This document shows positions 18,692 to 55,560 of a stretch of 64,000 bases of DNA, in pieces. This stretch comes from Pseudomonadota bacterium (GTDB taxonomy: Bacteria > Pseudomonadota > Alphaproteobacteria > Caulobacterales > Hyphomonadaceae), in contig JBCCMB010000001.1 in the NCBI GenBank assembly GCA_039026555.1, forward strand, positions 5,631 to 69,630, read 5' to 3'. The position numbers and the translations under genes are program-made. Each line of letters starts with the position of its first letter. Within the stretch, counting starts at the first letter, position 1. The notes below the pieces were generated by a model. The model was not told the origin of the DNA and made no database searches. It saw nothing but the letters and a program-made list of their open reading frames with translations.

Positions 18692-18721
18692 TCCAAGACG
18701 TTGAAAACGTTTCAAAAATTT

Positions 18722-29773: not shown

Positions 29774-30143
29774 GACGCGCGGACGACGCTTTTAGCCAAC
29801 CTCCGATCAGACGTCCGACCTTGTCAATTTCACGAGCAGCGAATTCATAGCGGCGCGGGTCTAAATGGCGGAGATCATAGGCCAAGCGGAAGAGGTGGCG
29901 CAGTTTCTCCAGGCCGAGATTGGCGGCTTTCAGAGCTGGCGCGCGCTCGCGCGAATAGGTCGCGTCGATCAGGCGTTCCAGCACGTCTAGCGCGGTTCCC
30001 TGAATACGGTCGCCGAGGAGGAATTTCTGGCTGCGTGGAAACTTTTCGACCGCGGGGATCAGCCAGCGTAGGAAGCCGTTCATCGCTTCGAGCGCAGGAC
30101 CGATTTTCCGTTGCCCGGATTCATATTTCAGCGCCCCAAACAT
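29760..30143 (-). CDS. avd: Avd-like accessory variability determinant (four-helix-bundle protein)
   Basis: 127 aa, basic and helical (FPRSQKFLLGDRIQGTALDVLERLIDA...). Its 3' end overlaps the RT start by 14 nt. Confidence 0.75.
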   Translation of the reverse strand: MFGALKYESGQRKIGPALEAMNGFLRWLIPAVEKFPRSQKFLLGDRIQGTALDVLERLIDATYSRERAPALKAANLGLEKLRHLFRLAYDLRHLDPRRYEFAAREIDKVGRLIGGWLKASSARHAQA

Positions 30144-30918: not shown

Positions 30919-33858
30919 TTAAAGCGTCCTGGCCACACGGAAACCGACAAGGTTGAACCGGTCGCCTGTGTCGTTCCTGTCGCGGAACGCCGAGCGGAGG
31001 AGCTGCGGATCGTTGAGCCAGGAACCGCCGCGGAGAACACGACGCGAGCAGTCACCGGCCGTGTGCGGAGCACCGTCGGGAGGCTGAGAAGCAAGCGTGT
31101 CACGATAGCAATCCTCCACCCATTCCCAGACATTGCCATGCATGTCGTAAACGCCGAATGCGTTAGGCTTAAAGCTGCCGATGGGTGCGGTCTCCAAGTA
31201 ATTGCCTTCGCAATCCACGACATCCCACGACAAATTGTATTTTTGTTGTGTGTCGGGATTTGCGAGGTTGGCGTAGGTGCATATCTCTGCGGCGTCGTCC
31301 CCCCAGGAATACGCCGTTTGCGTCCCCGCCCTAGCGGCATATTCCCATTCGGCTTCCGTTAACAGGCGATAGGGGCCGCCGCCCGCGTCCTTCGAAATCA
31401 TCCAATTAAGCCAGCGCACATACCCCTGCGCGTCGTTCCAGTTCAGATTGATGGCGGGATAGGTTCCCGTCCCGAAGCCTGCATCGCTGAGCGGCGCGCA
31501 GCCGATTATTGCTTCGCCATCCTCGGCCGCTAACAAGGCCGCTTGATCTGTGAAGGCGACGCATCGCGCCCATTCCTGATGAGTGATCTCGAACTGGCCG
31601 ACGGCGAAACGTTGGATCTCGATCTCTTTCTGCGGCCCCTCATCGCGAAAGCGGCCGGTTTCGTCGTCAGGTGATCCCATGACGAAACTGCCTGCGGGAA
31701 TAACGACCATTTCCGGGCATTGGGCCTCGGCGGCGCACTCTCGGAATGTCGCGCGAGCGTCAAGATCGGCTAAATCCTGAGATGACAGCGCGTAGCGCGC
31801 ATAATCGAAACGCTGCACCCATTCTCGCTTCAGTTCGAACTCAAACGCGTATCCCATACTGCCAAGCACGACCAAAAGGCCCAACGCGCCGACCGTTGCG
31901 CCAAGAAGCCGCCGGCGAGTCTTAGACCGGTTCTCCGACTTCTGCGCAGCAGACAAATAGTTCTGCTCGACCTCCCCAAGCTGGGGGCCATAGCGGGGAT
32001 GGTCCGCCAGCGCCGAGGCCGCCTTCAGCCGTTCGCCGAAATGGGTGAGGTATTCGCCTCTACGCTCCTGGCGCGCCCAGATCGCGGCGGCCTGTTTCAA
32101 CCCGCGCAAGGCTTCCAGCCGGGCTTTTTCGGGCTCCAGCCAAGCCTCCAGGCGCGGCCATTTGCGGAACAAGGCTTCATGCGCGACTTCGACGGTCCCG
32201 CCTTCGTCTCCGCTTTCCTTACGCACCACCAGCCGCCAGCGGTCGAAGCGCTCCAACAACTCCCGCTCTTCCGGCCCGAACGCGCGCCACGCCGCCACGC
32301 GCCGGATCGCTTCGCCGTCGTCATTCACATCCGCCAGCGGCGGCACGAAGACGGCTGCGCCGAGCTTTGTCTGGTGCGCCTTCGCCCCGCCTGCAGGCAG
32401 GGCTGCGTCGCGCTGTTCCGGATCGATCCCGCACAAAGCGCGCTCGGCCGCGTCCTCGATCAGGCCCGAAAGCCCCCCCATGGAGGCGTAGTCCGCATGG
32501 GCGAGCTTGCCCGACACGGCGAACTGGTCCCACAACCTTTGCAGCGCGAAGGCGAGCAGCGGCAGCGCATCCTTGCCCGGCGCATCCTCCATCAGCGCGT
32601 CGGTGAGCGCGGGATCCACCTCCACGCCATAGCGCGCCGCCGGGTCCTCGGCGACGTCGTCGAAGCGGAAGACGGGCAGCGTGCGCAAATCATATCCGCG
32701 CGCCTCCAACCCCTGAAAACGCGGATGCGCCTGCAGCTCCGGAAAGCTGTCTGTCCGGATGGTGAAGGCGAGCCGGATTGGCGAGGCCGCCTCCATAGCG
32801 GCGCGCAGATAATCAGCGAGCGCCTGGCCGTTCTCCCCGTCGGCCCGGGCGATCTCCTCCGCCTGGTCGACGCTGATGAGGAGGGTCGCGCCCGGGCGAT
32901 TGGCGCGCGTGCGCAGGCGGGCGGCTTGATCCTCCAGTGTTGCAACTAGGGCGGCGCGCCCGTCCTCCGTCAGCTCGGCCTTGTCGTCGCGCGGGGCCTG
33001 GCGCCAAGCCTCCAGCAGCGTTCGCTTCAGCGCGCCATGGGCTTCGCGCGTTCCGAAATCCGCCAGCGTCCCAGTGATCGCCTCCGCGAAGTTAAGCAGA
33101 GGGTCCGCCCCCGGCCGGAAGGCGCGCAAGGGCAGCCAGGCCGGCGCTTCTCGCCGCAAACGCGGAATGATCCCAGCCTTCAAGAGCGAGGATTTCCCGG
33201 CGCCAGACGCGCCGAGAATCACCAGGGGACGTTTGTCCGCGGCCGCCCGCATGGCGCGTAATTCTTCAAGCGCTTCGGCGATCTCCCGCGAGCGGCCGAA
33301 GAACAGCGCGGCGTCCGCATCGTCATCGCCAAAACTCTGCAGCCCTGGAAAGGGCGAGGGCCGCGCTGCGCGGTCTATCTCGAACGCCGCTGGATCGAGG
33401 CCCACAGCCGACAGCGCCCCCGCCTCGCGTAGGCCCCGTTTCAGCGTCTCAGCGCGGTCTTCGTCGCGAGCGAGGCTCAAGCCCTCAGGCGTCAGGAAGG
33501 GCGTCAGATCCAGCCCCTGGGCCTCGGCGCGCACGCGGCCCAGCTCGGCGCGCTGTTTCTCGTCCAGCGTCGCCTCTTCGCCCAGCAGGAAAAGCGGAAT
33601 AATCCGCTTGCCCATATACCAGGCGGCCTTGAACTCGGACGGGCATTCGCCTGAGGCGAGCCAATTGGGCGTTACCAGGCACAAGACCACGCGGCAGGCG
33701 CCCGCGTTCGCTCTCAGCGCATCGGCCCACGCTTCGCCGCCGGAAATGCTCGAATGGTCGATAAAAAGATCGGTAAAGCCTTCGGCTCTCAGCCAGGCCT
33801 CAAGCCGGCTGGCCAAATCGTCATCCCGACTGGAATGGGAAATGAAAATCGTCGCCAC
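30919..33858 (-). CDS. TIR - STAND P-loop NTPase - TM - FGE-sulfatase (C-type lectin fold) protein; DGR target 2
   Basis: MATIFISHSSRDDD (TIR). FFGRSREI...RPLVILGASGAGKSSLLKAG (Walker A) and TLLISVDQAEE (Walker B), followed by a long helical region. TM segment LLGATVGALGLLVVLGSMGYAF preceded by KTRRR. The FGE domain has MVVIPAGSFVMGS, INLNWNDAQGY, LLTEAEWEYAARAG and GVYDMHGNVWEW. Confidence 0.85.
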   Translation of the reverse strand: MATIFISHSSRDDDLASRLEAWLRAEGFTDLFIDHSSISGGEAWADALRANAGACRVVLCLVTPNWLASGECPSEFKAAWYMGKRIIPLFLLGEEATLDEKQRAELGRVRAEAQGLDLTPFLTPEGLSLARDEDRAETLKRGLREAGALSAVGLDPAAFEIDRAARPSPFPGLQSFGDDDADAALFFGRSREIAEALEELRAMRAAADKRPLVILGASGAGKSSLLKAGIIPRLRREAPAWLPLRAFRPGADPLLNFAEAITGTLADFGTREAHGALKRTLLEAWRQAPRDDKAELTEDGRAALVATLEDQAARLRTRANRPGATLLISVDQAEEIARADGENGQALADYLRAAMEAASPIRLAFTIRTDSFPELQAHPRFQGLEARGYDLRTLPVFRFDDVAEDPAARYGVEVDPALTDALMEDAPGKDALPLLAFALQRLWDQFAVSGKLAHADYASMGGLSGLIEDAAERALCGIDPEQRDAALPAGGAKAHQTKLGAAVFVPPLADVNDDGEAIRRVAAWRAFGPEERELLERFDRWRLVVRKESGDEGGTVEVAHEALFRKWPRLEAWLEPEKARLEALRGLKQAAAIWARQERRGEYLTHFGERLKAASALADHPRYGPQLGEVEQNYLSAAQKSENRSKTRRRLLGATVGALGLLVVLGSMGYAFEFELKREWVQRFDYARYALSSQDLADLDARATFRECAAEAQCPEMVVIPAGSFVMGSPDDETGRFRDEGPQKEIEIQRFAVGQFEITHQEWARCVAFTDQAALLAAEDGEAIIGCAPLSDAGFGTGTYPAINLNWNDAQGYVRWLNWMISKDAGGGPYRLLTEAEWEYAARAGTQTAYSWGDDAAEICTYANLANPDTQQKYNLSWDVVDCEGNYLETAPIGSFKPNAFGVYDMHGNVWEWVEDCYRDTLASQPPDGAPHTAGDCSRRVLRGGSWLNDPQLLRSAFRDRNDTGDRFNLVGFRVARTL
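30922..31047 (-). repeat. DGR variable repeat VR2 (divergent)
   Basis: Same length and flanks as the other VRs. By my count ~16 mismatches lie at TR adenines and 6 at non-adenine positions (GGT to GGC, CTT to CTC, and within ACC ACC ACG to GAC ACA GGC). Confidence 0.65.
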
Positions 33859-44339: not shown

Positions 44340-45704
44340 GTGGGATGGCTTCTTAGAGCTTTGGTCTGGTCTGTGGCGCTTGTTTGCTGCGCAGGGTTGG
44401 TCGGATGGTTTCTCATCGCCGGGCATAAACATGTTGCGGGTCTAGACGGGCCGGGGCGGCAATTAGAGACCGCGGTGATCTCCGCTGATGGTAGATACGT
44501 CGCTATTTTGCTCAATGATGGGGCGGCGGATGTTCAAACGATTGAGGGGGAGACGCTCGGGCTTATTCGCGGGCACGACGCGCCGTTGGCGGCGGCGCAT
44601 TTTTCGCCCGACGGCGAGATACTGATCACGATTGACGACGCGGGCAGTGTCCGCCGAACGCGGCTGGAGGGGCTCTTTTTTCGAGAAAGGGGGCATGGCG
44701 CCGATATGTCGGCGGCGGTCGAGCAGGCGGTTTGGGGCGATGCGTTGGCCGCACCGGCGGCGCTATTATGGGAGACAAGCGCGATCCATGCGCCCTGGAA
44801 GGCGTCGTCGCAGATTATGGATGCAGACACGCGCGCGCCTGTTTTGCCAAAGGGCGCAGTCCCGCCGCCGAGGAGCATGTTTCGAGATTGCGCAGATTGC
44901 CCGGAAATGCTGGTTGTTCCGCCGGGCGCATTCCTTATGGGCTCTCCTGAAGATGAAGAGGGGCGTGATCCCGATGAGGGCCCGCAGCGAGACGTGCGGA
45001 TCGATTATCCTTTCGCCGCGGCGCGGTTTGAGACGACGCTCGCGGAGTTTCAACGCTTCATGAAAGAGACTGGCCATGCGCCGGCGGGCGGGTGCGTCGC
45101 CGATTCCAACGGCGATGGGTTGTTGTCCGATGAGCCTGAGGCTAATTGGTCAAACACGGGGTTTGAACAAAGCGACGCCCAGCCCGCAGCCTGCGTTTCG
45201 TGGAACGACGCGCAGGCCTATGTGCATTGGCTGTCGCGCAAAACGGGCGAGACGTATCGTCTGCTTTCGGAAGCGGAATGGGAGTATGCGGCTCGGGCTG
45301 GGACGACGAGCGCCTATTTCTGGGGCTCAAGCGCAGATGCCGGCTGCGCTTATATGAACGGAGCGGACGCGACGGCGAAGCGCTCCTATCCTGGCTGGAC
45401 GACCGTGAGTTGCGATGACGGCTATTTGAATACGTCGCCCGTAGGCTCGTTCAACGCGAATGCATTTGGTCTTTACGACATGACGGGCAATGTTTCGGAG
45501 TGGACTGAGGATTGCTGGAATGAGAGCTATTCCGGTGCGCCGATAAATGGCTCGGCGTGGATAAGCGGCGAGTGCTCGCGTCGTGTTCTCCGCGGTGGTT
45601 CCTGGAGCGGCTATCCGCGGAGCCTTCGCTCGGCGCTCCGCGGCTGGAACTCCACCTCGGACCGGTACGACCATGTCGGTTTCCGTGTGGCCAGGACGCT
45701 TTAA
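44340..45704 (+). CDS. N-terminal TM anchor - short WD40-like segment - FGE-sulfatase (C-type lectin fold) protein; DGR target 3
   Basis: GTG start. TM segment LVWSVALVCCAGLVGWFLIAG. The FGE domain has MLVVPPGAFLMGS, VSWNDAQAYVHWLSRKTGETYRLLSEAEWEYAARAG, GLYDMTGNVSEW and RVLRGGSW. Confidence 0.8.
   Translation: MGWLLRALVWSVALVCCAGLVGWFLIAGHKHVAGLDGPGRQLETAVISADGRYVAILLNDGAADVQTIEGETLGLIRGHDAPLAAAHFSPDGEILITIDDAGSVRRTRLEGLFFRERGHGADMSAAVEQAVWGDALAAPAALLWETSAIHAPWKASSQIMDADTRAPVLPKGAVPPPRSMFRDCADCPEMLVVPPGAFLMGSPEDEEGRDPDEGPQRDVRIDYPFAAARFETTLAEFQRFMKETGHAPAGGCVADSNGDGLLSDEPEANWSNTGFEQSDAQPAACVSWNDAQAYVHWLSRKTGETYRLLSEAEWEYAARAGTTSAYFWGSSADAGCAYMNGADATAKRSYPGWTTVSCDDGYLNTSPVGSFNANAFGLYDMTGNVSEWTEDCWNESYSGAPINGSAWISGECSRRVLRGGSWSGYPRSLRSALRGWNSTSDRYDHVGFRVARTL
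45576..45701 (+). repeat. DGR variable repeat VR3
   Basis: I count 18 mismatches to the TR, all at TR adenines. It is on the opposite strand and ~19.5 kb from the TR. Confidence 0.85.
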
Positions 45705-45965: not shown

Positions 45966-47306
45966 GTGTCTTCGGGGACAAGACAACATCAATTTGTTTT
46001 TGTCAGTCATGCGCGGACAGACAAACCCAAAATCAAGGCGATCGTAGACGCCCTTATTTCTGGCGACGATCCAATAAAGGTCTGGCTCGATAACCCATCT
46101 GTCATGGGCTATTCCCAAGCCGAAATCGAAGCATCTTTTATCGATTTGCACGGCGGCGGTCGCTGGGACGACCAAATCAATGATGCGCTGGAAGCCTCCA
46201 TGTGCGTTTTAGCGTGCGCCTCGCACAGCTTCACTAAGCGCTATCATGACGATACGGACAGCAAGAAGGGCAGCGTTATCCGCAAAGAGGTCACGGCCGG
46301 CGAGACGGGCGATAAGCTGGTCTCGTGTCGTATCGACGATCTTCCGTTCGGGAATCTGCCGGGCGCGCTGTCGGAGGCGCAGACGGTCGATTTGCATGAG
46401 ACGCCGGACAAGCTGTCCGCCTTGGTGCGCGATGTCCGCCGAAAGATTAAGACGGTCAATGAGCGCAAGGAAGCCGGCGGATTGCGCAGCGACGCAAAAC
46501 TTTATCTCGTCGACCGCACGCCGCAGGAAAACGCGGCGAAGAAAAGTATTGAAGCTGCAAGCGACGGCGGCGTCCACGCGCTGTTCGTAAAGGCGCCGCA
46601 AAATGAATGCCTAGATCTTTTTCAAGAGCGCCTGCGCGAGGAGACCAGTCGGATTAGCAACCATACCAGATGCGTTTGGCAGGAATTGCACGTGGAGTGG
46701 CCGTCGCTGGCCGCCTCGCGAGATGAGTTTGCAGACGCCTATTTGAGCAATTTGGCGAGCAAACTGGGTGCGCGCGTGTCCGACTTGACTGCAAACCTCT
46801 CCAAGCCTCGCCAGGCGCCGCTGGCGGCTGTTTCCTTCATGAGTATGAGCGAGTGGGGACGGAGCCGGTTGCAAAAGGATCGGTTGCGCGAGTGGCTGGC
46901 CTTATGGCGGCGATTGCAGGAGGATACACGCGAGCTAAAGGCGGTGCCGGTGCTCGCTGTCGAGTTGCCGGAAGCGGCGCCCAAATGGAAAACCACGCCC
47001 AAAGTCAGCGACGGAGGCGTGTCCTCCCTACAGATTTTGAGAGACGTGCGTGCGGTTGAGAAAGAAGCGAAGCGCTCTGACGATTATGTGCCCCTGCGCC
47101 GATTGGACACGCTCCATCCTGTAACGCACCCGGACGCCGTTCGATGGCTGAAACAATGCGGGTACAGCGAATCGAGCAAGCAATGGGACGAGTTGCGGTC
47201 GGCAATTGACGGCGCCTTCGCGCAGGGCCGCAAGCGGCTGAAGCGCATCGCTATGCTGACATTTAAAAGGCGTATGGACGCACTCGTTCGTGATGGGACG
47301 ATATAG
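45966..47306 (+). CDS. TIR-like domain protein with an uncharacterised ~300-aa C-terminal region
   Basis: GTG start. QHQFVFVSHARTDKPKIKAIVDAL...VWLD...CVLACASHSF fits a TIR/TIR_2 N-terminal domain. I recognise no P-loop or other motif in the rest. Confidence 0.6.
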   Translation: MSSGTRQHQFVFVSHARTDKPKIKAIVDALISGDDPIKVWLDNPSVMGYSQAEIEASFIDLHGGGRWDDQINDALEASMCVLACASHSFTKRYHDDTDSKKGSVIRKEVTAGETGDKLVSCRIDDLPFGNLPGALSEAQTVDLHETPDKLSALVRDVRRKIKTVNERKEAGGLRSDAKLYLVDRTPQENAAKKSIEAASDGGVHALFVKAPQNECLDLFQERLREETSRISNHTRCVWQELHVEWPSLAASRDEFADAYLSNLASKLGARVSDLTANLSKPRQAPLAAVSFMSMSEWGRSRLQKDRLREWLALWRRLQEDTRELKAVPVLAVELPEAAPKWKTTPKVSDGGVSSLQILRDVRAVEKEAKRSDDYVPLRRLDTLHPVTHPDAVRWLKQCGYSESSKQWDELRSAIDGAFAQGRKRLKRIAMLTFKRRMDALVRDGTI

Positions 47307-47314: not shown

Positions 47315-48388
47315 ATGATGACCGAACAACGCGCCGCTTATCCCTATTTCAAGCGAGGCATTGCGGGGTATGAGCAGGAGCCCGCGCCGCGAGCGGAAGA
47401 GGCGCGCCCTTATGATCGCAGAAAAGCGGAAGCGTCCGCCGACTATATCCCCCATGAGGATTTGTCTCACGCCGTCAATGTCGCCTTGGCGCTCGGCATG
47501 CCGCTCTTGCTCACCGGCGATCCCGGGACCGGCAAGACCCAACTCGCTTACGCCGTAGCGCATGACCTTCAATGCCCGGTTCACAAATTTGAAACCAAGT
47601 CGACGAGCGCCGCGAAGGATTTGTTCTACACCTATGACGCGCTAACCGCGTTCAAGATTAAGGAGGCGGCCGATCCGCGTCAGTTCATTCGCTACCAAGC
47701 GTTGGGCCGCGCCATATTAGAGGCGTTTCCCTCAAACCATCCCGCCGTCGAAAAGCTATTGCCTCCAGCGGGATCGCCCAACCACACGCATCCAGGGCGA
47801 CCGCGTCGCGCGGTCGTACTCATCGACGAGATCGACAAAGCGCCGCGGGATTTTCCCAATGACTTGCTCAACGAAATAGACCGTCTGCACTTCCGAGTGC
47901 CGGAGCTTCAAAATATCGGGTCCCCCGGAGCGGACGCCGCCGAACGAGGTGAAGACGAAAGCGAGCAAGGCGTGTCGCCGGAATTTCGGCCCATCGTCAT
48001 CCTAACGTCGAACTCCGAAAAGGGATTGCCCGATCCGTTCCTACGCCGCTGCGTTTACTATGACATTCCCTTCCCGGAAGGCGATCAGATGGCGAAAATC
48101 GTAGCGGCGCGCGTGAAAGGCGTGGACGCCGGCGACCCCATGCTCGCGGATGCGCTGGATCTCTTTTATTCGCTGCGCCACGACAAAGGGCTGACCAAGC
48201 TGGCCAAAGAGCCGTCGACGGCCGAATTGCTGAATTGGCTGCATTTGCTGCTTCATCGCGGCGTTGCTGGGGGTAAGTCCCTTAAGACCCAGCCGGATCT
48301 GGTGAAGCAGACAATCTCCACGCTCGTGAAGAATTCGCGCGATCGGGAAGAGGCGATCGCTTTTGTCGATAATTGGAAAGCCGGCTGA
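47315..48388 (+). CDS. MoxR-like AAA+ ATPase
   Basis: PLLLTGDPGTGKTQLAYAVA (Walker A), AVVLIDEIDKAPRDFPNDLLNEID (Walker B and the MoxR-typical stretch) and ILTSN (sensor 1). Confidence 0.85.
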   Translation: MMTEQRAAYPYFKRGIAGYEQEPAPRAEEARPYDRRKAEASADYIPHEDLSHAVNVALALGMPLLLTGDPGTGKTQLAYAVAHDLQCPVHKFETKSTSAAKDLFYTYDALTAFKIKEAADPRQFIRYQALGRAILEAFPSNHPAVEKLLPPAGSPNHTHPGRPRRAVVLIDEIDKAPRDFPNDLLNEIDRLHFRVPELQNIGSPGADAAERGEDESEQGVSPEFRPIVILTSNSEKGLPDPFLRRCVYYDIPFPEGDQMAKIVAARVKGVDAGDPMLADALDLFYSLRHDKGLTKLAKEPSTAELLNWLHLLLHRGVAGGKSLKTQPDLVKQTISTLVKNSRDREEAIAFVDNWKAG

Positions 48389-48412: not shown

Positions 48413-51400
48413 ATGGCCGATGGAGCATCAGCAGCAGAGTTCGAGGACGAAGAGGTCGCGCGCCTTTTGGGCGACGAGCTGGAGCGGCTTTTTGATCGCC
48501 TAGACGAGGCGGGGCTTTTGGTGGGGCCGCGTGAGCGGTCGGCGGCTTACGCCATCGCGTTTCAATGGCTTGGCGGAACGCGCGCGCCGCCCGCCCGCGC
48601 ATCTGAGGCGATGTGGCGGCTTCGCCCGATGCTGGCGCCCGTTCTCGCCCGAACGCAAAATGATCGGGCAGTTTTCTTCCATGTGTTCGACACAAATTAC
48701 GAACCTCAGCCTATTAACCCGCCCGATGAGCCGGACCCACCCTTAAAGGGTTGGCCTTGGCGGCGGATCGTGCTGGGTATCGCGGCCACGATCATGCTCA
48801 GCGGATTGGCAAGCGTTGTCTATCATCGAACTCAGAATGAGGCCGACGTGGTCGTCGTCGAGGACGGCCCAAGCGGCGTCGCCAAAATCGAGCCAATTCA
48901 GACGGATGGCGATGCGCCGGTCGCGACTGAGAGGAGAGCCGCGCCATTGGCGGACCAAACGGCGAATGATTTTCTCAACCGCATTCGCGATGCCGCAACG
49001 GCAATCGATGGCGACGTCTACAGGTACGGCCTTGCTCCCACGCTGGAGGAAGTCGCCAAGGAGCTGATCGACGACTCCAGGTCGTTGCGAAACGCGACGC
49101 CGGCGGATGGTGGAGGCGTCGCGCTATCGTCTCAAACGACTATTTTAGCCGGCGGCGTATTAAGTGGCGCGGCGTTCTCAAATGATGAAACACGCATCCT
49201 CTCATGGAGCTCGGACAACACCGTCAGACTCTGGGACGCGCAGACCGGAGACCAGATCGGGCCGTCCATGCAACATAACTTCATCGTCCGGGGCGCGGTG
49301 TTCTCAAAGGATGACACACGCATCCTCTCATGGAGTGTGGACAACACCGTCAGGCTCTGGGACGCACAGACCGGAGACCAGATCGGACCGTCCATGCAGC
49401 ATGAGGACGCCGTCGGGGGCGCGGCGTTCTCAAATGATGAAACACGCATCCTCTCATGGAGCGACGACGCCACTGTCAGGCTTTGGAACGCACAGACCGG
49501 AAACCAGATCGGGACACTTATGGGACATGGACGCGACGTCTATGGCGCGGCGTTCTCAAAGGATGAGACGCGCATCCTCTCATGGAGCCGGGACGCCACC
49601 GTCAGGCTCTGGGACGCGCAGACCGGAGACCAGATCGGACCGTCCCTGCAACACGAGCACGTCGTCCTGGGCGCGGCGTTTTCAAAAGATGAGACACGCA
49701 TCCTCTCATGGAGCGACGACGCCACCGTGCGGCTTTGGGACGCCAACACAGGCGATCAGATCGGACGGCCAATGGTACATAAGGGCAGGGTATCTGGCGC
49801 AGCGCTCTCAAAGGACGAAAGCCGCATTCTGACTTGGAGTGAAGATGGAAGGATAAGCTCTTGGAGCGACCCGGGGGCCTCTTTAGACGCGGAGTGGAGC
49901 GCCGACGCCTATGCGCGCCGGCTGAGCGACCTTACCGGCTTGCCGGGCGGGGCGCCGTTATCGATTTTTGCGAACAATGGCGCGCTCTGGGCGCGCCTGG
50001 CCCATGCGCTGTCGCGGATGGAGCAGCCGGGTCGAGAGACGTCCTTGTCCCAACTTCGCGCCGACGCTGCCAAATCTCTGGAGGACGTCCAACCCTCGCG
50101 CGTAGATCGGATCGCCGAAAAGCTGCGCGCCCTAGACGCCCCGCCGACGGATCGCGCCGCGCTCTTTGACGCCGTTTTCGCCCTCGATGAAGCAGCCGCG
50201 TCCGATGCGCCCAGCATAGATCAAAACATCGGTTTTGGTCCGGCCTCCGACGTGCTGCGCGCCGCCGCGATCGCCGGCTTGGATGCGGCGCGATATGGCG
50301 ATCCGCCGTGGCTGAACCTTAAGCCGCCGGCGCGTCCGGCCGCTTCGCCCGCGCCGGCCTGGCTGTGGCCTCTTTCTGTTTTGATACCGCTGGCGTTCGC
50401 GTTTTGGGTGGCGTCGTCGCTCGCTTTGAAGCGCGCCTATCTTCGCCGCCGCGCGCCGCGCGTCCCGCCGCTTCATACCAAATTCGTCAGCGAGGCCGGC
50501 CGGAACGTCGCCTATCAAGCGGGTCTCTTCCAGCGCGCCGCGCAGCAATTGCTCACGCGAACGCCCCGCGCCAGCGCCGCAATCGACATTCCTGCGACGG
50601 TCTCGGCGACGCTTGCGGAAGGCGGCGAGATTATCGCGCCGGTTTTTAAGGATGCGCGTCTGCGTCCCGAATATCTGGTGCTGATTGAAGCGAACGCCGC
50701 CGGCGACCAGGAGGCGCGCCGGTTGAGGCGGATGGCCGAGCGTCTAGAGGACATCGTCGATTTAGACGTCTTTTACTATCAGACCGATCCTGGCGAGTTG
50801 GAGAGTGAGGACGGCGCGAACCGCATCACAATTGAACAAGCCCAGTCGCGCTATCCGGACCATCGATTGATCATTCTCGGGACGGGCGGAGGCTTTCTTG
50901 ATGCCGTGGATTTGTCTCTTCGTCCCCCAGCGCAGAAGCTTTTCTATTGGGAGCGGCGCGCGCTGCTGACGCCTATTCCTCTCGCGGAGTGGAGCAAAGA
51001 GGATTACGCGCTGGCCAAAGCGCTAGAGATGCCCATCGGGCGTGCGACGCCTGAGGGTCTGCTCACGCTCGCCGAACTGCTCGGGTTAGAAGGCGCTGAA
51101 GCTGGGACCGAACCCAACCCGAGCGGAGACGGCTTGGCGCGCCCGCTGCCGGACTTGTTTCGCAATCGCTCGCAGCGCTTTTTGTTCAACGCGCCGCCCG
51201 ACCAAGCAACAATAGCCGATCTTCTACGTGAATTGCGCAATTATCTAGATCCGTCGGCGTTCGATTGGTTCGCGTCATTAGCGGTTTATCCGAATGTTCA
51301 ATGGGATTTGACGCTGCTTCTGGGAGTCAAGCTGCCCCGTGCGCCGGGAGAGGACTTTGCCACTAATCCGCTTTATGATGAACGTCGGCTGGCCGCGATC

Positions 51401-54400
51401 ACGCAGTTGCCTTGGCTGCGGTCGGGCCGCATGCCCAACTGGCTCAGACGCACTTTAATTAGCAAGCTGTCGCCCGAGCGGCGCGAGGAGATCAAGGCCG
51501 TTCTGGACGAGCTGCTTGAAAATGCGCGACCTAAGAACAAACACGAAGTCGACGCGATCGAACTCAGTATCCGTCGCGATAAGCCTAAAGACACAACACG
51601 AACTGACCGTTTGCTAGACGACGAAGTCCTGCTCGACTTTCTCGCCTCCGGCCAACGAGAGGATTTTGCGTTGGCGCGGTTCTCACGGTTCGCTGAATTG
51701 TTCGATCGCGGGTTTTGGGATCGGATAGGCGGGCCCGAAGGCGTTGCGGGCGCAGCAGCGCTAGCCTTCTCATTGACCGCGTTTGTCGTTACCCCGCGCG
51801 CCGCAGACGGCGCTGTTGTGACCGGTGCTTATGCGCCGCTATGGCTTTTGGGCGTCGGGGGGCTGCTGGTCTTTGCATTCTGGAAGCCCGACATTGCGGC
51901 GGCTCGTCTCGGCGCCGCGTTCGAGCGCGCCGCGCCTGGCGCTTTGGCTTTGTTCTTGGCGACGCTGGGCCCGCTCGCGGCGGCGTACGTCAGCGCTCGA
52001 TCAGGTGTAGATCCGCTGTCTATAGTCGCGACGTCGAATACCACGTCATTTTGGATCTGGGGCGCGTATATCGCTCAATTTGGTCTTCTCGTCGGCGGGC
52101 TTTGGGTCTCACGTTCGATCTGCACGCGCTTTGGCCTTCGCATCTACGTCGCTGCATCGCTGCCTGATTGGGCCGAGTTGTCGATCAAAGCTGCGGGGCT
52201 GGGCGCGTTCGCTTTGGCGATAACAGCGCTCGCCGGAAATGTTCCCGGCCTAGCCGAGTTTTCGCGCTCGCCACTTGTTGACCCAGACCAATTGGACGCG
52301 TCGGCGATGCTTTGGCTCGGCGGTTGTCTCGCCGTATTTTTGTTGGGCTGGCTGGCTGCGCAGTTCGCGCCGGATATGCAGACGATCCGGGCGGCGAGCG
52401 CCGGCCGCAGCGCAAAGCCCGCACTATTCGCGATTGTCGCACGCGCCCTCGCCGCACTTGTTCCCGTTGTAGCGTCATTGGCGGCCTATTGGCATGTGTC
52501 CTTGACCTCGTCGCGATCAGACCTCGCTATGGATGAGACGGTTTTCCGACCCGCTCTGACCGCAATATCGCCGGACGGCGAGACGCTCGCAGCGGTCGAC
52601 ATCGCCGGGCGGCTTGTCGTTTCGCATGCCAACGCCGCCGCGCCTTACCGCGCCGACCCGACGCAATTGAGCGACGCGCGCGCGCCGTTCACGGCGTTGG
52701 CGGTTGGCGGCGAAGGTGAAGCCGTCATCGCTTTCGCAGATGCAGACGGACGAGTCTTTGAGGCGACGCCGTATCGCGACGCCGTCGCGCCCGTCGTTGA
52801 TCCGTCGGAAAATTCCGGTCGGGCGCGTAGCGACGGCGCGCCGGCCCAACTCGCGTTCGGCCCCAACGCGCAACTCTGGACGGCGATAGAGACAGCGGAA
52901 GTCGGTGTTCGCGTTATCACCGCAGGCCGAGCTTGGAACGACGCGGAGCAGAGCGGCCCGCCACAAGCACTTATTGCTGTGAGTGGAGGCCGAGCGGCCT
53001 TAGCGACACTGGACGGCCGTATTCGTTTGGTGACGCCCACAAGCGACGGTCTCGCCGTTCAGCTGATTGGCGCCAGCGGGTCTCTCGCGCCGTCGCGTCA
53101 GCTCAGTTTCGATCCGGACACGATGACACTTCGCGCTGGTCTGATCGATGGCGAGATATGGGAAGCAAATTTGGTCGACAGCGGCGCTTCGTTCGAATTT
53201 GTAGGCCGCGCCAACGCCATGGCGCTCGGGCCGGCGCCTCTCTACACGACATCTTCTGAGATCTCACCATTTGTTGGGCCCGCCACGCCCTCGGGCAGGC
53301 GGCTCGCGCTTGTAATTGGAAACGCCGAGTACGAGCAATTACCAGACCTGAAGAATCCCTTGAACGATGCGCGCCTCATTTCTGAGTCGTTGGAAAGTTT
53401 AGGTTTCGAAGTATCCCGGCTACAAAACGCGTCGCGCAACGAAATGCTTCAAGCGGTGCGTCAACATGCTCAGAATGTCGCGGCCGCCGGGCGTAATTCT
53501 GTGAGTTTTGTTTATTTTGGGGGACAAGGCGTTGAGATAGACGGTCAAAACTATTTGATTCCAACTGACTTGAGTGCGCACGAGCCAGCCACCGTCCGAA
53601 GCGATTCACTACTTCTCAATGATGTAATAAGTGAAATCGATACGGTCGGGCCAGCGGCTAGCCTTTTCGTACTGGATACCTGCCGAAACGATCCATTTTC
53701 TGGCCAACGCGGATCAATCGGCCAAGGTTTTGCTCCCGCGAACGCGCCGACAAACACCTTCATCGCCTTTGCGGTCGAACCAGGAGGGATAGCGCTCGAC
53801 AGTTTGGATGCGAGGGACAATAACAGTCCTTACACCTCGACGTTGGCGGAGACCTTGCTTATTCCGGGGTTATCTGTGCAGGATGCGTTTGCCGAGGTTC
53901 GCCGCAAGGTGACGGCTGCGACATCAGGCGAACAAGTGCCATGGATATCGGACCGTTTAGCGAGCGAATTTTGTTTCGCTGGCTGCGAGGTGCAAACGCC
54001 CGAGCCGGCCGCCATCCCCTCGGCGCTCCCACCTCGCCTCTATATCCAGATCGCTTCAGAGGCGCAGCGCGAAGACGCGTTACGTGTTCGCGAGGCGTTG
54101 TCGCCGCTCGACGTAGACGTGCCGGAGTTTGAGGTGCGTAGCGCGAGCATGCCGGACCGGGGGGAGTTTCGCTATTTCCGGCGCTCGGAAGAGGGGCTGG
54201 CGCGTGAAACGTACAACGCGCTGCCGGATCTCGACGCCGGCGGTGCCGCCTTTGTCTACGTGTCCGGCTATGAGGACTCCGAGGACATCCGAGACAATCA
54301 TTTCGAGCTTTGGCTGCCCGGTCCTACGATGTTGGAGGACGATTTCCAGCCGGGTTTCGAGTTTCGCGATGTGATTGAGGGCGCGCCGGAGATCGCGACA

Positions 54401-55135
54401 CCCGAGATGGTCGTGATTCCGTCGGGTCGGTTCCTGATGGGTTCGCCGGCGTCTGAGGCCGCGCGCGACGATGATGAAGGCCCGGTTCGGACGGTTCGGA
54501 TCGATTATCAGTTTGCGGTCGGCAAGTATGAAGTGACCTGGGCGGAATGGGAGGCGTGCGTCGCCGACGGCGCGTGCGATGACGCCGGTCCGGTCGGCGC
54601 AGACGGGGATGAAGGCTGGGGGCGCGGGTCGCGTCCTGTGATCAATGTGGATTGGAACGATGCGCAGGCCTATGTGCGCTGGCTGTCGCGCAAAACGGGC
54701 AAGACGTATCGTCTGCTGTCTGAAGCGGAATGGGAGTATGCGGCTCGCGGGGTGACGACCACAGAAGCCGTCTCGACGCGTTTCAGCTGGGGAGACGAGG
54801 ATCCGGTTTGCGAACGCGGCGCGCCGAACGGGGCGGTGTTTAGTCGATGCGAAGGCGGGGGAACGCGGCCCGTTGGGTTTTCGGCTCCGAACGCCTTTGG
54901 TCTTTACGATATGCACGGCAATGTTTGGGAATGGGTGGAGGATTGCTGGAATGACAGCTATTCTGGCGCGCCATCGAACGGCTCAGCTTGGACGCGCGGC
55001 GGATGTTCGCGTCGTGTTCTCCGCGGTGGTTCCTGGGGCAACGATCCGCAGCTCCTTCGCTCGGCGGACCGCCTCAGGAGCACCACCGCGAACCGACTCG
55101 ACTATGTCGGTTTCCGTGTGGCCAGGACGCTTTAA
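48413..55135 (+). CDS. Giant 2240-aa multidomain protein: N-terminal domain - TM - WD40 repeats - TM - large unassigned region - ~7 TM helices - propeller-like region - caspase-like (C14) domain - FGE-sulfatase domain; DGR target 4
   Basis: Six 42-aa WD40 repeats (TRILSWSxDxTVRLWDAQTGDQIG). Hydrophobic helices at about aa 115, 650 and 1130-1400. Caspase-like RRLALVIGNAEYEQLPDLKNPLNDA...VYFGGQG...NYLIPTD...FVLDTCRND. The FGE domain has MVVIPSGRFLMGS...RVLRGGSW. Confidence 0.85.
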   Translation: MADGASAAEFEDEEVARLLGDELERLFDRLDEAGLLVGPRERSAAYAIAFQWLGGTRAPPARASEAMWRLRPMLAPVLARTQNDRAVFFHVFDTNYEPQPINPPDEPDPPLKGWPWRRIVLGIAATIMLSGLASVVYHRTQNEADVVVVEDGPSGVAKIEPIQTDGDAPVATERRAAPLADQTANDFLNRIRDAATAIDGDVYRYGLAPTLEEVAKELIDDSRSLRNATPADGGGVALSSQTTILAGGVLSGAAFSNDETRILSWSSDNTVRLWDAQTGDQIGPSMQHNFIVRGAVFSKDDTRILSWSVDNTVRLWDAQTGDQIGPSMQHEDAVGGAAFSNDETRILSWSDDATVRLWNAQTGNQIGTLMGHGRDVYGAAFSKDETRILSWSRDATVRLWDAQTGDQIGPSLQHEHVVLGAAFSKDETRILSWSDDATVRLWDANTGDQIGRPMVHKGRVSGAALSKDESRILTWSEDGRISSWSDPGASLDAEWSADAYARRLSDLTGLPGGAPLSIFANNGALWARLAHALSRMEQPGRETSLSQLRADAAKSLEDVQPSRVDRIAEKLRALDAPPTDRAALFDAVFALDEAAASDAPSIDQNIGFGPASDVLRAAAIAGLDAARYGDPPWLNLKPPARPAASPAPAWLWPLSVLIPLAFAFWVASSLALKRAYLRRRAPRVPPLHTKFVSEAGRNVAYQAGLFQRAAQQLLTRTPRASAAIDIPATVSATLAEGGEIIAPVFKDARLRPEYLVLIEANAAGDQEARRLRRMAERLEDIVDLDVFYYQTDPGELESEDGANRITIEQAQSRYPDHRLIILGTGGGFLDAVDLSLRPPAQKLFYWERRALLTPIPLAEWSKEDYALAKALEMPIGRATPEGLLTLAELLGLEGAEAGTEPNPSGDGLARPLPDLFRNRSQRFLFNAPPDQATIADLLRELRNYLDPSAFDWFASLAVYPNVQWDLTLLLGVKLPRAPGEDFATNPLYDERRLAAITQLPWLRSGRMPNWLRRTLISKLSPERREEIKAVLDELLENARPKNKHEVDAIELSIRRDKPKDTTRTDRLLDDEVLLDFLASGQREDFALARFSRFAELFDRGFWDRIGGPEGVAGAAALAFSLTAFVVTPRAADGAVVTGAYAPLWLLGVGGLLVFAFWKPDIAAARLGAAFERAAPGALALFLATLGPLAAAYVSARSGVDPLSIVATSNTTSFWIWGAYIAQFGLLVGGLWVSRSICTRFGLRIYVAASLPDWAELSIKAAGLGAFALAITALAGNVPGLAEFSRSPLVDPDQLDASAMLWLGGCLAVFLLGWLAAQFAPDMQTIRAASAGRSAKPALFAIVARALAALVPVVASLAAYWHVSLTSSRSDLAMDETVFRPALTAISPDGETLAAVDIAGRLVVSHANAAAPYRADPTQLSDARAPFTALAVGGEGEAVIAFADADGRVFEATPYRDAVAPVVDPSENSGRARSDGAPAQLAFGPNAQLWTAIETAEVGVRVITAGRAWNDAEQSGPPQALIAVSGGRAALATLDGRIRLVTPTSDGLAVQLIGASGSLAPSRQLSFDPDTMTLRAGLIDGEIWEANLVDSGASFEFVGRANAMALGPAPLYTTSSEISPFVGPATPSGRRLALVIGNAEYEQLPDLKNPLNDARLISESLESLGFEVSRLQNASRNEMLQAVRQHAQNVAAAGRNSVSFVYFGGQGVEIDGQNYLIPTDLSAHEPATVRSDSLLLNDVISEIDTVGPAASLFVLDTCRNDPFSGQRGSIGQGFAPANAPTNTFIAFAVEPGGIALDSLDARDNNSPYTSTLAETLLIPGLSVQDAFAEVRRKVTAATSGEQVPWISDRLASEFCFAGCEVQTPEPAAIPSALPPRLYIQIASEAQREDALRVREALSPLDVDVPEFEVRSASMPDRGEFRYFRRSEEGLARETYNALPDLDAGGAAFVYVSGYEDSEDIRDNHFELWLPGPTMLEDDFQPGFEFRDVIEGAPEIATPEMVVIPSGRFLMGSPASEAARDDDEGPVRTVRIDYQFAVGKYEVTWAEWEACVADGACDDAGPVGADGDEGWGRGSRPVINVDWNDAQAYVRWLSRKTGKTYRLLSEAEWEYAARGVTTTEAVSTRFSWGDEDPVCERGAPNGAVFSRCEGGGTRPVGFSAPNAFGLYDMHGNVWEWVEDCWNDSYSGAPSNGSAWTRGGCSRRVLRGGSWGNDPQLLRSADRLRSTTANRLDYVGFRVARTL
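49150..49900 (+). repeat. Tandem 126-bp in-frame repeats encoding WD40 blades
   Basis: Period 126 nt (units start at 49166, 49292, 49418 and so on). Units 1 and 3 share an identical 45-nt string, GGCGCGGCGTTCTCAAATGATGAAACACGCATCCTCTCATGGAGC. The sixth unit is degenerate. Confidence 0.85.
55007..55132 (+). repeat. DGR variable repeat VR4
   Basis: I count 14 mismatches to the TR, all at TR adenines. It is on the opposite strand and ~29 kb from the TR. Confidence 0.85.
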
Positions 55136-55156
55136 CCCTCTTTTCCTTATGGCTTA

Positions 55157-55206
55157 GCCGCGCAAGCGGCGGGGCTAGAACTCGCGAAGCGGGTCAAGAT
55201 TTTTTT
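55157..55206 (+). terminator. Post-VR4 module: GNRA-loop hairpin plus rho-independent terminator
   Basis: GCCGC-GCAA-GCGGC (55157-55170), then ACTCGC-GAA-GCGGGT (55180-55194) followed by CAAGATTTTTTT. Confidence 0.55.
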
Positions 55207-55249
55207 GGGTGCGTTTTGGCTTCTGGCTCAGTCTGCAATGCCGCCGATT

Positions 55250-55560
55250 GTTTTGAAAAAGTCTGACTGCGACGCCTGCGCTCTCAAGTCGAAATACCGC
55301 TCGGACCTGCCGGTGCGCCGCGTCCTGCGCTCGTTGCACAAAGATGCTCGCGACATCGCCGGACGGAACACGGCGTCTGACGCCTACCTGGTCTCTACGC
55401 GGGAGCGGAATAAAGTGGAGATGCCGTTCGCCCACCTTAAACGCATCCAAAAGTTCGATCGTTTGCGCCTTAGCGGACCAAACGGTGCCAAGGACGAGTT
55501 CTTCCTCGCCGCAACCGCCCAAAACCTCTGAAAACTTGGGAAGCTGTCTATCCGCAGCGT
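55250..55560 (+). pseudogene. C-terminal remnant of an IS5/IS1182-family transposase
   Basis: RERNKVEMPFAHLKRIQKFDRLRLSGPNGAKDEFFLAATAQNL matches the conserved C-terminus of this family. No N-terminal part is present. A TGA sits where the family continues with RKLAK. Confidence 0.65.

What the first reader, a model, noticed from the sequence alone, without database searches (positions are those of the whole stretch)
55007..55206. Remote DGR target VR4 at the end of a 2240-aa gene, ~29 kb from the TR
The terminal 126 nt of the giant ORF match the TR with 14 mismatches, all at TR adenines: AAC to GGC, AAT to GAT, AAC to CTC three times, AAC to GAC twice, AAC to AGC, ACG to GCG and AAT to TAT. 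The same invariant flanks are present. A GCAA-loop hairpin and a terminator follow, although their sequence differs from the VR1/VR3 version. With VR1-VR3 this makes four candidate targets for one TR, which is a high number for a chromosomal or ICE-borne DGR.
Basis: seen in the sequence. Interest (0 to 1): 0.85.

Follow-up and report, generated by a model that had tools for sequence, protein, structure and literature searches.

The report
Remote DGR target on giant gene
The last 125 bases of a 2240-residue membrane protein gene are a genuine variable repeat of a diversity-generating retroelement whose template lies 29 kb away on the same integrative conjugative element; this is a clear but ordinary example of a kind of hypermutated immune-sensor system that has already been described.

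Summary
Window 55007-55131 (+) aligns without gaps to a 125-nt template repeat (TR) at 26079-25955 (-). There are 15 differences. Fourteen are at TR adenines (p about 1e-9 to 1e-10). All four VRs share it, and so do related DGRs, so it is the TR/VR discriminator and not a refutation.

A complete DGR core (Avd, RT with IGNLTSQ/YVDD, TR with a covarying 3' RNA structure) and three other VRs are present. VR4, VRa and VRc are identical at 95 of 95 non-adenine positions, while the 150 nt upstream are only 67-71% identical. That pattern points to recent templated replacement.

The gene belongs to a conserved four-gene module: a short CLec protein, TIR-iSTAND, an AAA ATPase and a giant membrane protein. 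In a related metagenomic contig (L054) this module sits directly next to its own avd-RT-TR, and both of its FGE genes carry adenine-specific VRs. In the window, an IS fragment occupies that position.

Remote targets, multi-target DGRs and DGR-diversified conflict-system sensors are all published. This is a new member of a known kind. Ongoing diversification could not be tested.

The parts
55007..55131 (+). VR4: 125-nt variable repeat covering codons 2199-2240 of the giant ORF
   Evidence: Ungapped alignment to the TR. There are 14 mismatches at TR adenines and 1 C>G discriminator at 55126. p about 1e-9 to 1e-10.
55106..55131 (+). Invariant 3' segment of the VR (IMH-like), GTCGGTTTCCGTGTGGCCAGGACGCT, with the discriminator G at 55126 (C in the TR)
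   Evidence: Identical in all four VRs. It differs from the TR only at core position 120. Relatives show the same C/G difference.
48413..55135 (+). Giant target gene (2240 aa; GenBank protein MEM6625117.1). Hydrophobic segments at about 119-137, 654-672 and a block at 1110-1364; WD40 propeller about 250-490; caspase (Peptidase_C14) 1629-1853; FGE-sulfatase/CLec 1996-2238
   Evidence: Homologs of similar size are P0004, P0006 and P0007.
55157..55170 (+). Post-VR hairpin 1: GCCGC-GCAA-GCGGC, 25 nt after the end of the VR
   Evidence: The counterpart GCCGC-GTCA-GCGGC lies at +27 after a VR in L003.
55180..55206 (+). Post-VR hairpin 2 (ACTCGC-GAA-GCGGGT, with one T.G pair) followed by a T7 run; terminator-like
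   Evidence: It is positionally homologous to ACCGGC-GAA-GCCGGT after VRa, VRb and VRc, with one compensatory G-C to C-G swap.
25955..26079 (-). Template repeat (TR): 125 nt with 30 adenines, 28 of them in the mutable part; contains 9 AAC and 2 AAT codons
25878..25954 (-). Structured RNA 3' of the TR. A covarying 10-bp hairpin lies at 25937-25914. A helix pairs the TR 3' end (25961-25956) with 25900-25895. An invariant CATGATGA lies at 25885-25878.
   Evidence: RNAalifold on 21 relatives: 17 pairs, 12 of them with compensatory changes. 95% of cells are paired against 77% in shuffles, and 0 of 500 shuffles reach the observed value.
28703..29773 (-). DGR reverse transcriptase (356 aa; MEM6625100.1) with IGNLTSQ and YVDD motifs
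   Evidence: RVT_1 E = 2e-14. Sequence shown. 52 related loci were found.
29760..30143 (-). Avd accessory protein (127 aa)
   Evidence: Pfam bAvd E = 2.6e-17. NCBIfam DivGenRetAVD scores 102 bits against a cut-off of 80.
26264..28678 (-). Target A (804 aa: TIR, one TM segment, PG_binding, FGE) with VRa at 26268-26392, lying between the RT and the TR
30919..33858 (-). Target B (979 aa: TIR, nSTAND1, one TM segment, FGE) with VRb at 30923-31047; VRb has 6 extra non-adenine mismatches
44340..45704 (+). Target C (454 aa: N-terminal TM segment plus FGE only) with VRc at 45576-45700; first gene of the four-gene module that ends with the giant gene
   Evidence: The same gene order is seen in L054 and on the P0007 contig.
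45966..47306 (+). TIR-iSTAND protein (446 aa), a module component
   Evidence: PF13676 E = 2e-10 and PF19995 E = 1e-6.
47315..48388 (+). AAA+ ATPase (357 aa; best hit AAA_5) immediately upstream of the giant gene
55205..55531 (+). C-terminal fragment of an IS transposase (DDE_Tnp_1_6), at the position where L054 has avd-RT-TR

Best explanation
VR4 is a functional, non-adjacent variable repeat of the single DGR on this integrative conjugative element.

Inferred mechanism, by analogy with the Bordetella phage BPP-1 DGR:
1. The minus-strand cassette is transcribed. Its order is target B, a DUF433/DUF5615 pair, avd, RT, target A, TR.
2. The TR RNA folds together with its conserved 3' element.
3. 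The RT-Avd complex copies the TR into cDNA and misincorporates opposite the 28 mutable adenines.
4. The cDNA replaces the homologous 125 nt at any locus that carries the matching 3' segment (with G rather than C at core position 120) and a downstream GC-rich hairpin.

Because the cDNA acts in trans, distance and strand do not matter. VR4 lies 29 kb from the TR on the opposite strand and is rewritten like the two cassette-proximal VRs.

The result is up to about 7e15 variants of 16 codons in the C-terminal C-type-lectin (FGE-sulfatase fold) domain of a 2240-aa multi-pass membrane protein. That protein also carries a WD40 propeller and a caspase domain. It forms a conserved module with a short CLec-only protein (also a target), a TIR-iSTAND protein and an AAA+ ATPase.

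The module most likely works as an iSTAND/MoxR-type conflict (immune) system. The hypervariable lectin domain would be the ligand sensor, and caspase and TIR would be the outputs.

What is shown: the sequence anatomy, the adenine specificity, the homogenisation of non-adenine positions, and the homologous module targeted in cis elsewhere. What is inferred: present-day activity, the sensing role, and the membrane topology.
For: - Adenine-specific mismatches: 14 of 15, p = 1.5e-9.
- VR4, VRa and VRc are 95/95 identical at non-adenine positions, although the 150 nt immediately upstream are only 67-71% identical. At about 22% divergence, the chance of 0 changes in 94 sites is about 7e-11. This indicates recent templated replacement.
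- The DGR core is intact. Avd scores above the NCBIfam equivalog cut-off. The RT has the IGxxxSQ and YVDD motifs. The TR is followed by an RNA structure with 12 of 17 covarying pairs across 21 relatives.
- The C/G discriminator at core position 120 is conserved across the lineage.
- GC-rich hairpins follow 33 of 35 VRs in the lineage, against 3.4 in shuffles. The VR4 hairpin has a near-identical counterpart in L003.
- In L054 the homologous giant protein P0004 (43% identity over residues 252-1619 and 49% over the C-terminal region) sits in the same four-gene module, directly upstream of avd-RT-TR. It ends in a VR with 16 adenine-specific mismatches plus the same discriminator.
- The VR lies in an FGE-sulfatase domain (E = 1e-55).
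- Published precedents exist for trans targets and for this module type.
Against: - There is no direct evidence of ongoing diversification. The protein is a singleton cluster. No allele above 64% identity exists in the protein collection. The degenerate VR pattern has no exact match in the genome or metagenome collections. Reads were not available.
- The VR4 hairpin stem is only 5 bp, and its GCAA loop does not fit the GRNA consensus. In BPP-1, stems of 8-10 bp were optimal, and shortening the stem or changing the loop abolished homing (PMC3240598).
- The local fold is no better than shuffled sequence.
- The rest of the genome could not be searched for a second TR.
Confidence: 0.82

Rival explanations
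1. VR4 is a recently retired target. It was rewritten by this TR, or by a lost sister TR, not long ago. It is no longer a competent recipient because its downstream recognition hairpin has degenerated and its own avd-RT-TR was deleted by an IS.
For: - The stem is only 5 bp with a GCAA loop, against 6-7 bp stems after VRa, VRb and VRc. The second hairpin contains a T.G pair.
- The BPP-1 data show that short stems and non-consensus loops cripple homing.
- An IS fragment at 55205-55531 occupies the place where L054 has avd-RT-TR.
- VRb shows that targets in this element can drift; it has 6 non-adenine mismatches.
Against: - There are zero non-adenine differences from the TR outside the discriminator, so any retirement must be very recent.
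- The same 5-bp GCCGC/GCGGC hairpin type follows VRs in the related DGRs L003, L002 and L005, so it is a normal variant for this lineage.
Confidence: 0.12
2. VR4 is serviced by a different TR/RT located outside the window, and its match to the TR at 26 kb only reflects two sister DGRs with identical TRs.
For: - Only 64 kb of a 106-kb contig of a MAG was visible.
- Organisms with several related DGRs are documented.
- The homologous module in L054 has its own core.
Against: - The TR in the window already matches at every non-adenine position, so nothing further is needed to explain VR4.
- No second TR or RT lies in the window.
- The position next to VR4 where a cognate core would sit holds an IS remnant.
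Confidence: 0.04
3. The similarity is ordinary paralogy or gene conversion among four FGE-domain genes, or an assembly artefact of a repeated segment in a MAG, and not retrohoming.
For: - The four genes do share paralogous FGE domains, 52-76% identical upstream of the VR.
- The contig comes from a metagenome assembly.
Against: - Divergence by point mutation would not place 14 of 15 differences on TR adenines (p about 1e-9).
- Gene conversion would not leave the adenine positions scrambled. Only 10-16 of the 30 adenine positions are identical between VRs, while all non-adenine positions are identical among VR4, VRa and VRc.
- Each VR has unique flanks and sits in a continuous ORF.
- The same anatomy recurs in independent assemblies.
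Confidence: 0.02

Closest known systems
DGR-diversified sensors of MoxR/iSTAND ternary and STAND conflict systems (Kaur et al. 2020 eLife, PMC7159879; Dore et al. 2024 PNAS, PMC10907252, especially RT clade 5A loci such as Thiohalocapsa PB-PSB1 DGR 8, and the trans targets DGR 4 and DGR 5 served by the DGR 2 TR)
   Same: - An AAA ATPase lies immediately upstream of a target with a very long N-terminal extension.
- There is also a short CLec-only target.
- Adjacent TIR and caspase or trypsin effectors are present.
- The FGS/CLec domain is always C-terminal.
- Some targets have TM segments.
- Some targets match a TR elsewhere at all non-adenine sites.
   Different: - The host here is an alphaproteobacterial-type MAG, and the whole set is cargo of an ICE.
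- One core serves four architecturally different targets.
- No vWA domain could be demonstrated in the giant protein.
- The domain combination of TM segments, WD40, caspase and FGE has no close homolog; the best match is 43% identical and has an M23 peptidase in place of the caspase.
Contig L054 (ENA ERZ27250436, k141_945810), an unpublished metagenomic relative found here
   Same: - It has the same four-gene module: a 463-aa FGE protein, a TIR protein, an AAA ATPase and a 2331-aa giant protein.
- Its RT belongs to the same lineage (62% identity).
- Both of its FGE genes carry VRs with 16 adenine-specific mismatches and the same C>G discriminator.
- It lies next to conjugative trb genes.
   Different: - In L054 the avd-RT-TR core lies directly downstream of the giant gene, so the target is in cis.
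- In the window the core is 19-29 kb away on the other strand, it has two further targets of its own, and an IS fragment sits in the core's place.
Treponema denticola and other DGRs with non-adjacent targets (Wu et al. 2018 NAR, PMC5758913)
   Same: One TR serves several targets that are not next to the RT. Non-adjacent targets are assigned by A-to-N-only differences. The avd-RT-TR order corresponds to their architecture B2.
   Different: According to that survey, the Treponema DGR uses an HRDC accessory gene and has up to seven remote targets. In this window all four targets lie within 29 kb, on one mobile element.
Bordetella phage BPP-1 DGR target-recognition elements (Guo et al. 2011, PMC3240598)
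   Same: The VR is at the 3' end of the gene. An IMH-like segment differs from the TR copy. A GC-rich hairpin with a 4-nt loop lies 4-34 bp downstream of the VR; here it is 25 nt downstream.
   Different: The stem is 5 bp, not 7-10 bp. The loop is GCAA, which fits GNRA but not GRNA. The TR and VR differ at a single base in the 3' segment.

Membership tests
Diversity-generating retroelement (variable repeat / target) | TR-VR pair whose differences are confined to TR adenines | tested here: met
   14 of 15 mismatches are at adenines. The 15th is the lineage-wide 3' discriminator. p = 1.5e-9.
Diversity-generating retroelement (variable repeat / target) | DGR-type reverse transcriptase with the [ILV]GxxxSQ motif and a YxDD catalytic motif. 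The motif definition is recalled from the DGR literature and was not checked against a DGR-specific profile. | tested here: met
   RVT_1 E = 2e-14. IGNLTSQ and YVDD are visible in the translation. 52 relatives are flanked by homologous TR/VR pairs.
Diversity-generating retroelement (variable repeat / target) | Accessory protein Avd next to the RT | tested here: met
   Pfam bAvd E = 2.6e-17. NCBIfam DivGenRetAVD scores 102.4 bits against a cut-off of 80.
Diversity-generating retroelement (variable repeat / target) | 3' IMH in the VR that differs from IMH* in the TR, which sets the direction of transfer | tested here: met
   A single C (TR) versus G (all four VRs) difference at core position 120. 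The same difference is seen in relatives. Its function is inferred.
Diversity-generating retroelement (variable repeat / target) | GC-rich hairpin/cruciform 4-34 bp downstream of the VR, with a 7-10 bp stem and a 4-nt GRNA loop (Guo et al. 2011) | tested here: inconclusive
   A hairpin is present at +25, but its stem is 5 bp and its loop is GCAA. The lineage as a whole has hairpins after 33 of 35 VRs, against 3.4 in shuffles.
Diversity-generating retroelement (variable repeat / target) | Variable codons lie in a C-type-lectin / FGE-sulfatase fold ligand-binding domain | tested here: met
   PF03781 E = 1e-55 over residues 1996-2238. The VR covers residues 2199-2240.
Diversity-generating retroelement (variable repeat / target) | Observed diversification of the VR among cells or strains | not testable with these tools
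   The cluster is a singleton, no alleles were found, and there were no pattern matches. Reads were unavailable.
iSTAND / MoxR-vWA ternary conflict system (Kaur et al. 2020) | iSTAND component with an N-terminal effector such as TIR | tested here: met
   ORF 45966-47306: TIR_2 E = 2e-10 and iSTAND PF19995 E = 1e-6, 29.7 bits against a cut-off of 24.
iSTAND / MoxR-vWA ternary conflict system (Kaur et al. 2020) | MoxR-clade AAA+ ATPase | tested here: inconclusive
   ORF 47315-48388 hits generic AAA models (AAA_5 E = 4e-10). No MoxR-specific model scored above its cut-off.
iSTAND / MoxR-vWA ternary conflict system (Kaur et al. 2020) | vWA domain in the large component that carries the variable C-terminal effectors | tested here: inconclusive
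   There is no Pfam vWA hit. The AlphaFold model of residues 660-1092 has a mean pLDDT of 58, with an alpha/beta core at pLDDT 72-81. The Foldseek hits are not significant (E >= 0.03), although vWA-type folds such as TFIIH p44, NorD and ANTXR2 appear among them.
iSTAND / MoxR-vWA ternary conflict system (Kaur et al. 2020) | C-terminal FGS domain and caspase or TIR effectors on the large component, often with TM segments | tested here: met
   Caspase at 1629-1853, FGE at 1996-2238, and several hydrophobic segments. Family members swap the C-terminal module.
Integrative conjugative element | Integrase at a tRNA gene, plus a relaxase, a coupling protein and type IV secretion genes | tested here: met
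   tRNA-His at 18615-18691 with an adjacent integrase ORF listed at 18647-20005 (the two overlap, so the true start is uncertain). Relaxase/DUF3363 at 23610-25613. TraG-type coupling protein at 58940-61036. VirB11/TrbB-type ATPase at 61428-62516. The far end of the element lies outside the window.

The most novel reading that the evidence does not exclude
The element is a self-transmissible 'hypervariable receptor arsenal'. One DGR core on an ICE keeps four architecturally different membrane-spanning immune sensors diversified: TIR; TIR-STAND; CLec only; and WD40-caspase. The sensor module that contains VR4 lost its own avd-RT-TR to an IS event. It was then taken over in trans by the neighbouring core. 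If so, TR sharing or capture would be a general route by which conflict systems stay diversifiable after rearrangement, and such repertoires could spread by conjugation.
Probability: 0.3. Interest if true: 0.55.

Novelty: new member of a known kind. Interest (0 to 1): 0.35.

Why it matters
This is a clean, fully annotatable example of a DGR acting on a non-adjacent target inside a mobile element. The cis arrangement of the same module is available for comparison in L054.

It extends the published link between DGRs and STAND/MoxR-type conflict systems to alphaproteobacterial ICE cargo. It also offers a compact test bed for asking what makes a locus a competent trans recipient: four VRs, two types of downstream hairpin, one drifting VR and one TR.

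It does not change current understanding of DGRs.

Tried and rejected
1. I looked for strain variants of VR4.
   - Exact cluster look-up gave singleton clusters.
   - A degenerate VR/TR pattern with N at every TR adenine gave 0 hits in genome contigs and in metagenome contigs.
   - A protein search with the last 223 residues found nothing above 64% identity.
2. The Logan contig L001, from run SRR22824305, carries the RT but ends inside target A and contains no VR.
3. Rfam reported only the tRNA at gathering thresholds. No curated family covers the RNA 3' of the TR.
4. PADLOC found only domain-level hits (TIR, caspase) and no complete named defence system.
5. I tested for a vWA domain in the giant protein.
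   - Pfam on four sub-fragments found nothing.
   - A homolog search of residues 660-1092 found only six proteins.
   - The AlphaFold model was of low confidence, and Foldseek gave no significant match.
   - The result is inconclusive.
6. Folding the VR4 downstream region on its own gave a z-score of -0.37, so single-sequence thermodynamics does not support the hairpin. Comparison across relatives does.
7. I considered and rejected ordinary paralog divergence, gene conversion and assembly artefact, because the scrambling is specific to adenine positions.
Full report
**1. The observation**

The ORF at 48413-55135 (+) encodes 2240 residues. It is annotated in GenBank as MEM6625117.1, from a 106-kb contig of a 'Pseudomonadota bacterium' MAG.

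BLAST of 54900-55210 against the window finds five related copies:
- VR4 itself.
- Three other gene ends: 26268-26392 (-), 30923-31047 (-) and 45576-45700 (+).
- An adenine-rich, 125-nt copy at 26079-25955 (-), which is the template repeat (TR).

VR4 (55007-55131) aligns to the TR without gaps. There are 15 differences. The fifteenth was missed: C in the TR and G in the VR at core position 120 (window 25960 and 55126).

That difference is shared by all four VRs. It recurs in TR/VR pairs of related elements. I therefore read it as the IMH/IMH*-type discriminator that distinguishes donor from recipient, not as a refutation.

With 30 adenines among 125 positions, the probability of this distribution is 1.5e-9. 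If the discriminator is set aside, it is 1.2e-10.

**2. The retroelement**

On the minus strand the order is:
- target B (33858-30919)
- a DUF433/DUF5615 pair
- Avd (30143-29760)
- RT (29773-28703)
- target A (28678-26264)
- TR (26079-25955)

Avd passes the NCBIfam equivalog cut-off for DGR Avd and matches Pfam bAvd. The RT matches RVT_1 and shows IGNLTSQ and YVDD.

A scan of species-representative genomes with the RT found 52 relatives at 51-79% identity over the best aligned segment. Most are alphaproteobacterial MAGs. Most carry homologous TR/VR pairs. Several have the same arrangement, with a target between the RT and the TR or with three VRs in under 10 kb (L003, L020, L026).

The TR is followed by a conserved RNA structure. 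A 10-bp hairpin is present. A helix pairs the 3' end of the TR with a GCGTCC box about 60 nt downstream, leaving the discriminator C unpaired. An invariant CATGATGA follows. Twelve of 17 pairs show compensatory changes. In the real alignment 95% of cells are paired, against 77% in shuffles and 33-45% when the partners are slid.

This looks like the counterpart of the spacer RNA that controls priming in the BPP-1 element. That comparison rests on my own knowledge and was not tested here. It supports a working TR.

**3. Evidence that VR4 was rewritten recently**

VR4, VRa and VRc are identical at all 95 non-adenine positions. They agree at only 10-15 of the 30 adenine positions. The 150 nt immediately upstream of the VRs are only 67-71% identical among these three genes.

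Ordinary divergence at that rate would leave about 20 differences in the non-adenine positions. The chance of finding none is about 1e-10.

VRb is the exception. It has six extra non-adenine mismatches, so it may be drifting.

The TR can specify 4^28 DNA variants and about 6.6e15 protein variants over 16 codons. None of them can be a stop codon.

**4. Downstream recognition elements**

After the stop codon comes a C/T-rich spacer. Then follow GCCGC-GCAA-GCGGC (55157-55170), ACTCGC-GAA-GCGGGT (55180-55194) and a T7 run.

Taken alone this region folds no better than shuffled sequence (z = -0.37). A single terminator-like match is what chance would give.

The comparative picture is stronger.
- 33 of 35 VRs of this RT lineage are followed within 110 nt by a perfect GC-rich hairpin of at least 5 bp, against 3.4 in shuffles. 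The stem sequences differ between loci.
- VRa, VRb and VRc share one version: GCGGGC-GNNA-GCCCGC followed by ACCGGC-GAA-GCCGGT.
- VR4 has another version. Its close counterpart follows a VR in L003 (GCCGC-GTCA-GCGGC and ACCCGC-GAA-GCGGGT).

Measured against the criteria from BPP-1 (7-10 bp stem, GRNA loop, 4-34 bp from the VR; PMC3240598), VR4 meets the distance criterion. It falls short on stem length and on the second loop base.

**5. The gene and its module**

The giant protein has the following features:
- an N-terminal region with one hydrophobic segment (119-137)
- a WD40 propeller (about 250-490)
- a second hydrophobic segment (654-672), followed by a basic stretch
- a 430-residue region with only six database homologs
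- a block of about six or seven hydrophobic segments (1110-1364)
- a second repeat region
- a caspase domain (1629-1853)
- the FGE-sulfatase/CLec domain (1996-2238)

Upstream of it lie a 454-aa CLec-only protein (target C), a TIR-iSTAND protein and an AAA+ ATPase.

The same four genes occur in the same order on two other contigs.

The first is L054.
- The 2331-aa homolog P0004 is 43% identical over residues 252-1619 and 49% identical over the C-terminal region.
- It carries an M23 peptidase in place of the caspase.
- It ends in a VR with 16 adenine-specific mismatches to a TR that lies directly downstream of an adjacent avd-RT. It has one other mismatch plus the same C>G discriminator.
- The short FGE gene of that module is likewise a target.
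- The L054 RT is 62% identical to the RT in the window.
- The locus abuts trb conjugation genes.

The second is the contig that carries P0007.
- The module lies beside an integrase, with no RT among the genes called within 10 kb.
- The giant protein ends in a chitinase-like domain and has no FGE domain.
- P0006, a further homolog whose contig was not examined, ends in M23 alone.

The family therefore swaps C-terminal modules, and a subset are DGR targets. In the window, an IS transposase fragment (55205-55531) sits where L054 has avd-RT-TR.

This matches the published description of iSTAND/MoxR ternary systems. There the large component has highly variable C-terminal effectors, and FGS is the commonest (PMC7159879). 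It also matches the clade 5A DGR loci, which have a MoxR-like ATPase upstream of a long target plus a short CLec-only target (PMC10907252).

A vWA domain, which defines those systems, could not be shown. Pfam found nothing. A low-confidence model gave only non-significant matches, although vWA-type folds were among them.

**6. Context**

Housekeeping genes run to about 18.5 kb. Then come, in order:
- tRNA-His (18615-18691)
- an integrase
- DUF2840
- an S26 peptidase
- a DUF3363 relaxase
- about 33 kb of cargo
- a TraG-type coupling protein (58940-61036)
- a VirB11/TrbB-type ATPase

The cargo holds the DGR and all four targets. It also holds trypsin-like, TPR, PG-binding, LuxR and TIR-WD40 genes. 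The ICE interpretation is consistent with this, although the far end of the element is outside the window.

**7. Comparison with what is known, and verdict**

The following are all published:
- multi-target DGRs
- non-adjacent and remote targets
- targets of up to 2697 aa
- the avd-RT-TR architecture
- trans diversification judged by perfect non-adenine matches
- TM-containing targets
- DGR-diversified CLec domains on TIR, caspase or STAND conflict proteins

What is specific here:
- the ICE-cargo setting
- one core serving four different architectures
- a giant target with a domain combination that has no close homolog
- the contrast between the remote arrangement here and the cis arrangement in L054

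It is a new member of a known kind. Present-day activity remains untested.

Noticed in passing
window 30923-31047 (-): VRb, at the end of the TIR-nSTAND1-FGE gene, has six non-adenine mismatches to the TR (T21C, T51C, C77A, C81A, C83G, G84C) on top of 16 adenine mismatches. The other three VRs have none. It may be a target that has stopped being rewritten.
   Followed up: partly
window 25878-25964 (-); loci L007-L051: Just 3' of the TR lies a conserved, covarying RNA structure. A 10-bp hairpin is present. A helix pairs the TR 3' end with a GCGTCC box and bulges out the discriminator C. An invariant CATGATGA follows. Rfam has no family for it. It may be the priming/spacer element of this DGR lineage.
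   Followed up: yes
window 55205-55531 (+): A C-terminal fragment of a DDE_Tnp_1_6 (IS) transposase lies directly after the VR4 terminator. In the related contig L054 this position holds avd-RT-TR.
   Followed up: partly
window 30222-30772 (-); L001 110-660: A DUF433/DUF5615 gene pair, which looks like a toxin-antitoxin pair, is inserted between target B and avd. It is also present on a Logan contig from SRR22824305.
   Followed up: no
P0001, P0004, P0006, P0007; L054 5593-12588: The giant WD40/multi-TM protein family keeps its first 1600 or so residues but swaps the C-terminal module: caspase plus FGE in the window, M23 plus FGE in L054, M23 only in P0006, and a chitinase-like domain in P0007. 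On the two related contigs examined (L054 and the P0007 contig) it follows a short FGE protein, a TIR protein and an AAA ATPase.
   Followed up: partly
window 50390-51688 (+), residues 660-1092 of the giant protein: This cytoplasmic-looking region has only six homologs among 5.8 billion clusters, some of them stand-alone proteins. A low-confidence model shows an alpha/beta core with weak, non-significant resemblance to vWA-type folds.
   Followed up: partly
window 26264-28678, 30919-33858, 44340-45704: Targets A, B and C each have a single hydrophobic segment. In A and B it separates the TIR or TIR-STAND part from the FGE domain; in C it lies at the N-terminus, ahead of the FGE domain. This suggests receptors with a periplasmic hypervariable lectin domain and, in A and B, cytoplasmic signalling domains. 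Target A also has a PG_binding domain after the segment.
   Followed up: no
window 18615-20005: tRNA-His is followed immediately by a tyrosine integrase, which marks the left end of the ICE. The listed integrase ORF start overlaps the tRNA, so the true start is probably further downstream.
   Followed up: no
window 38875-44218 (-) and 55784-58732 (-): Further conflict-system-like cargo surrounds the module: a 633-aa TPR protein, a 622-aa trypsin-like protease, a 480-aa PG_binding protein and a 982-aa TIR-WD40 protein. None of them carries a VR.
   Followed up: no
window post-VR regions; L002, L003, L005: Two versions of the post-VR double-hairpin module coexist in the window and in L003. One has GCGGGC stems with ACCGGC-GAA-GCCGGT. 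The other has GCCGC or GCGGC stems with ACCCGC-GAA-GCGGGT. The module among VRa, VRb and VRc appears better conserved than the coding sequence upstream of the VRs (judged by eye from the alignment; not quantified).
   Followed up: partly
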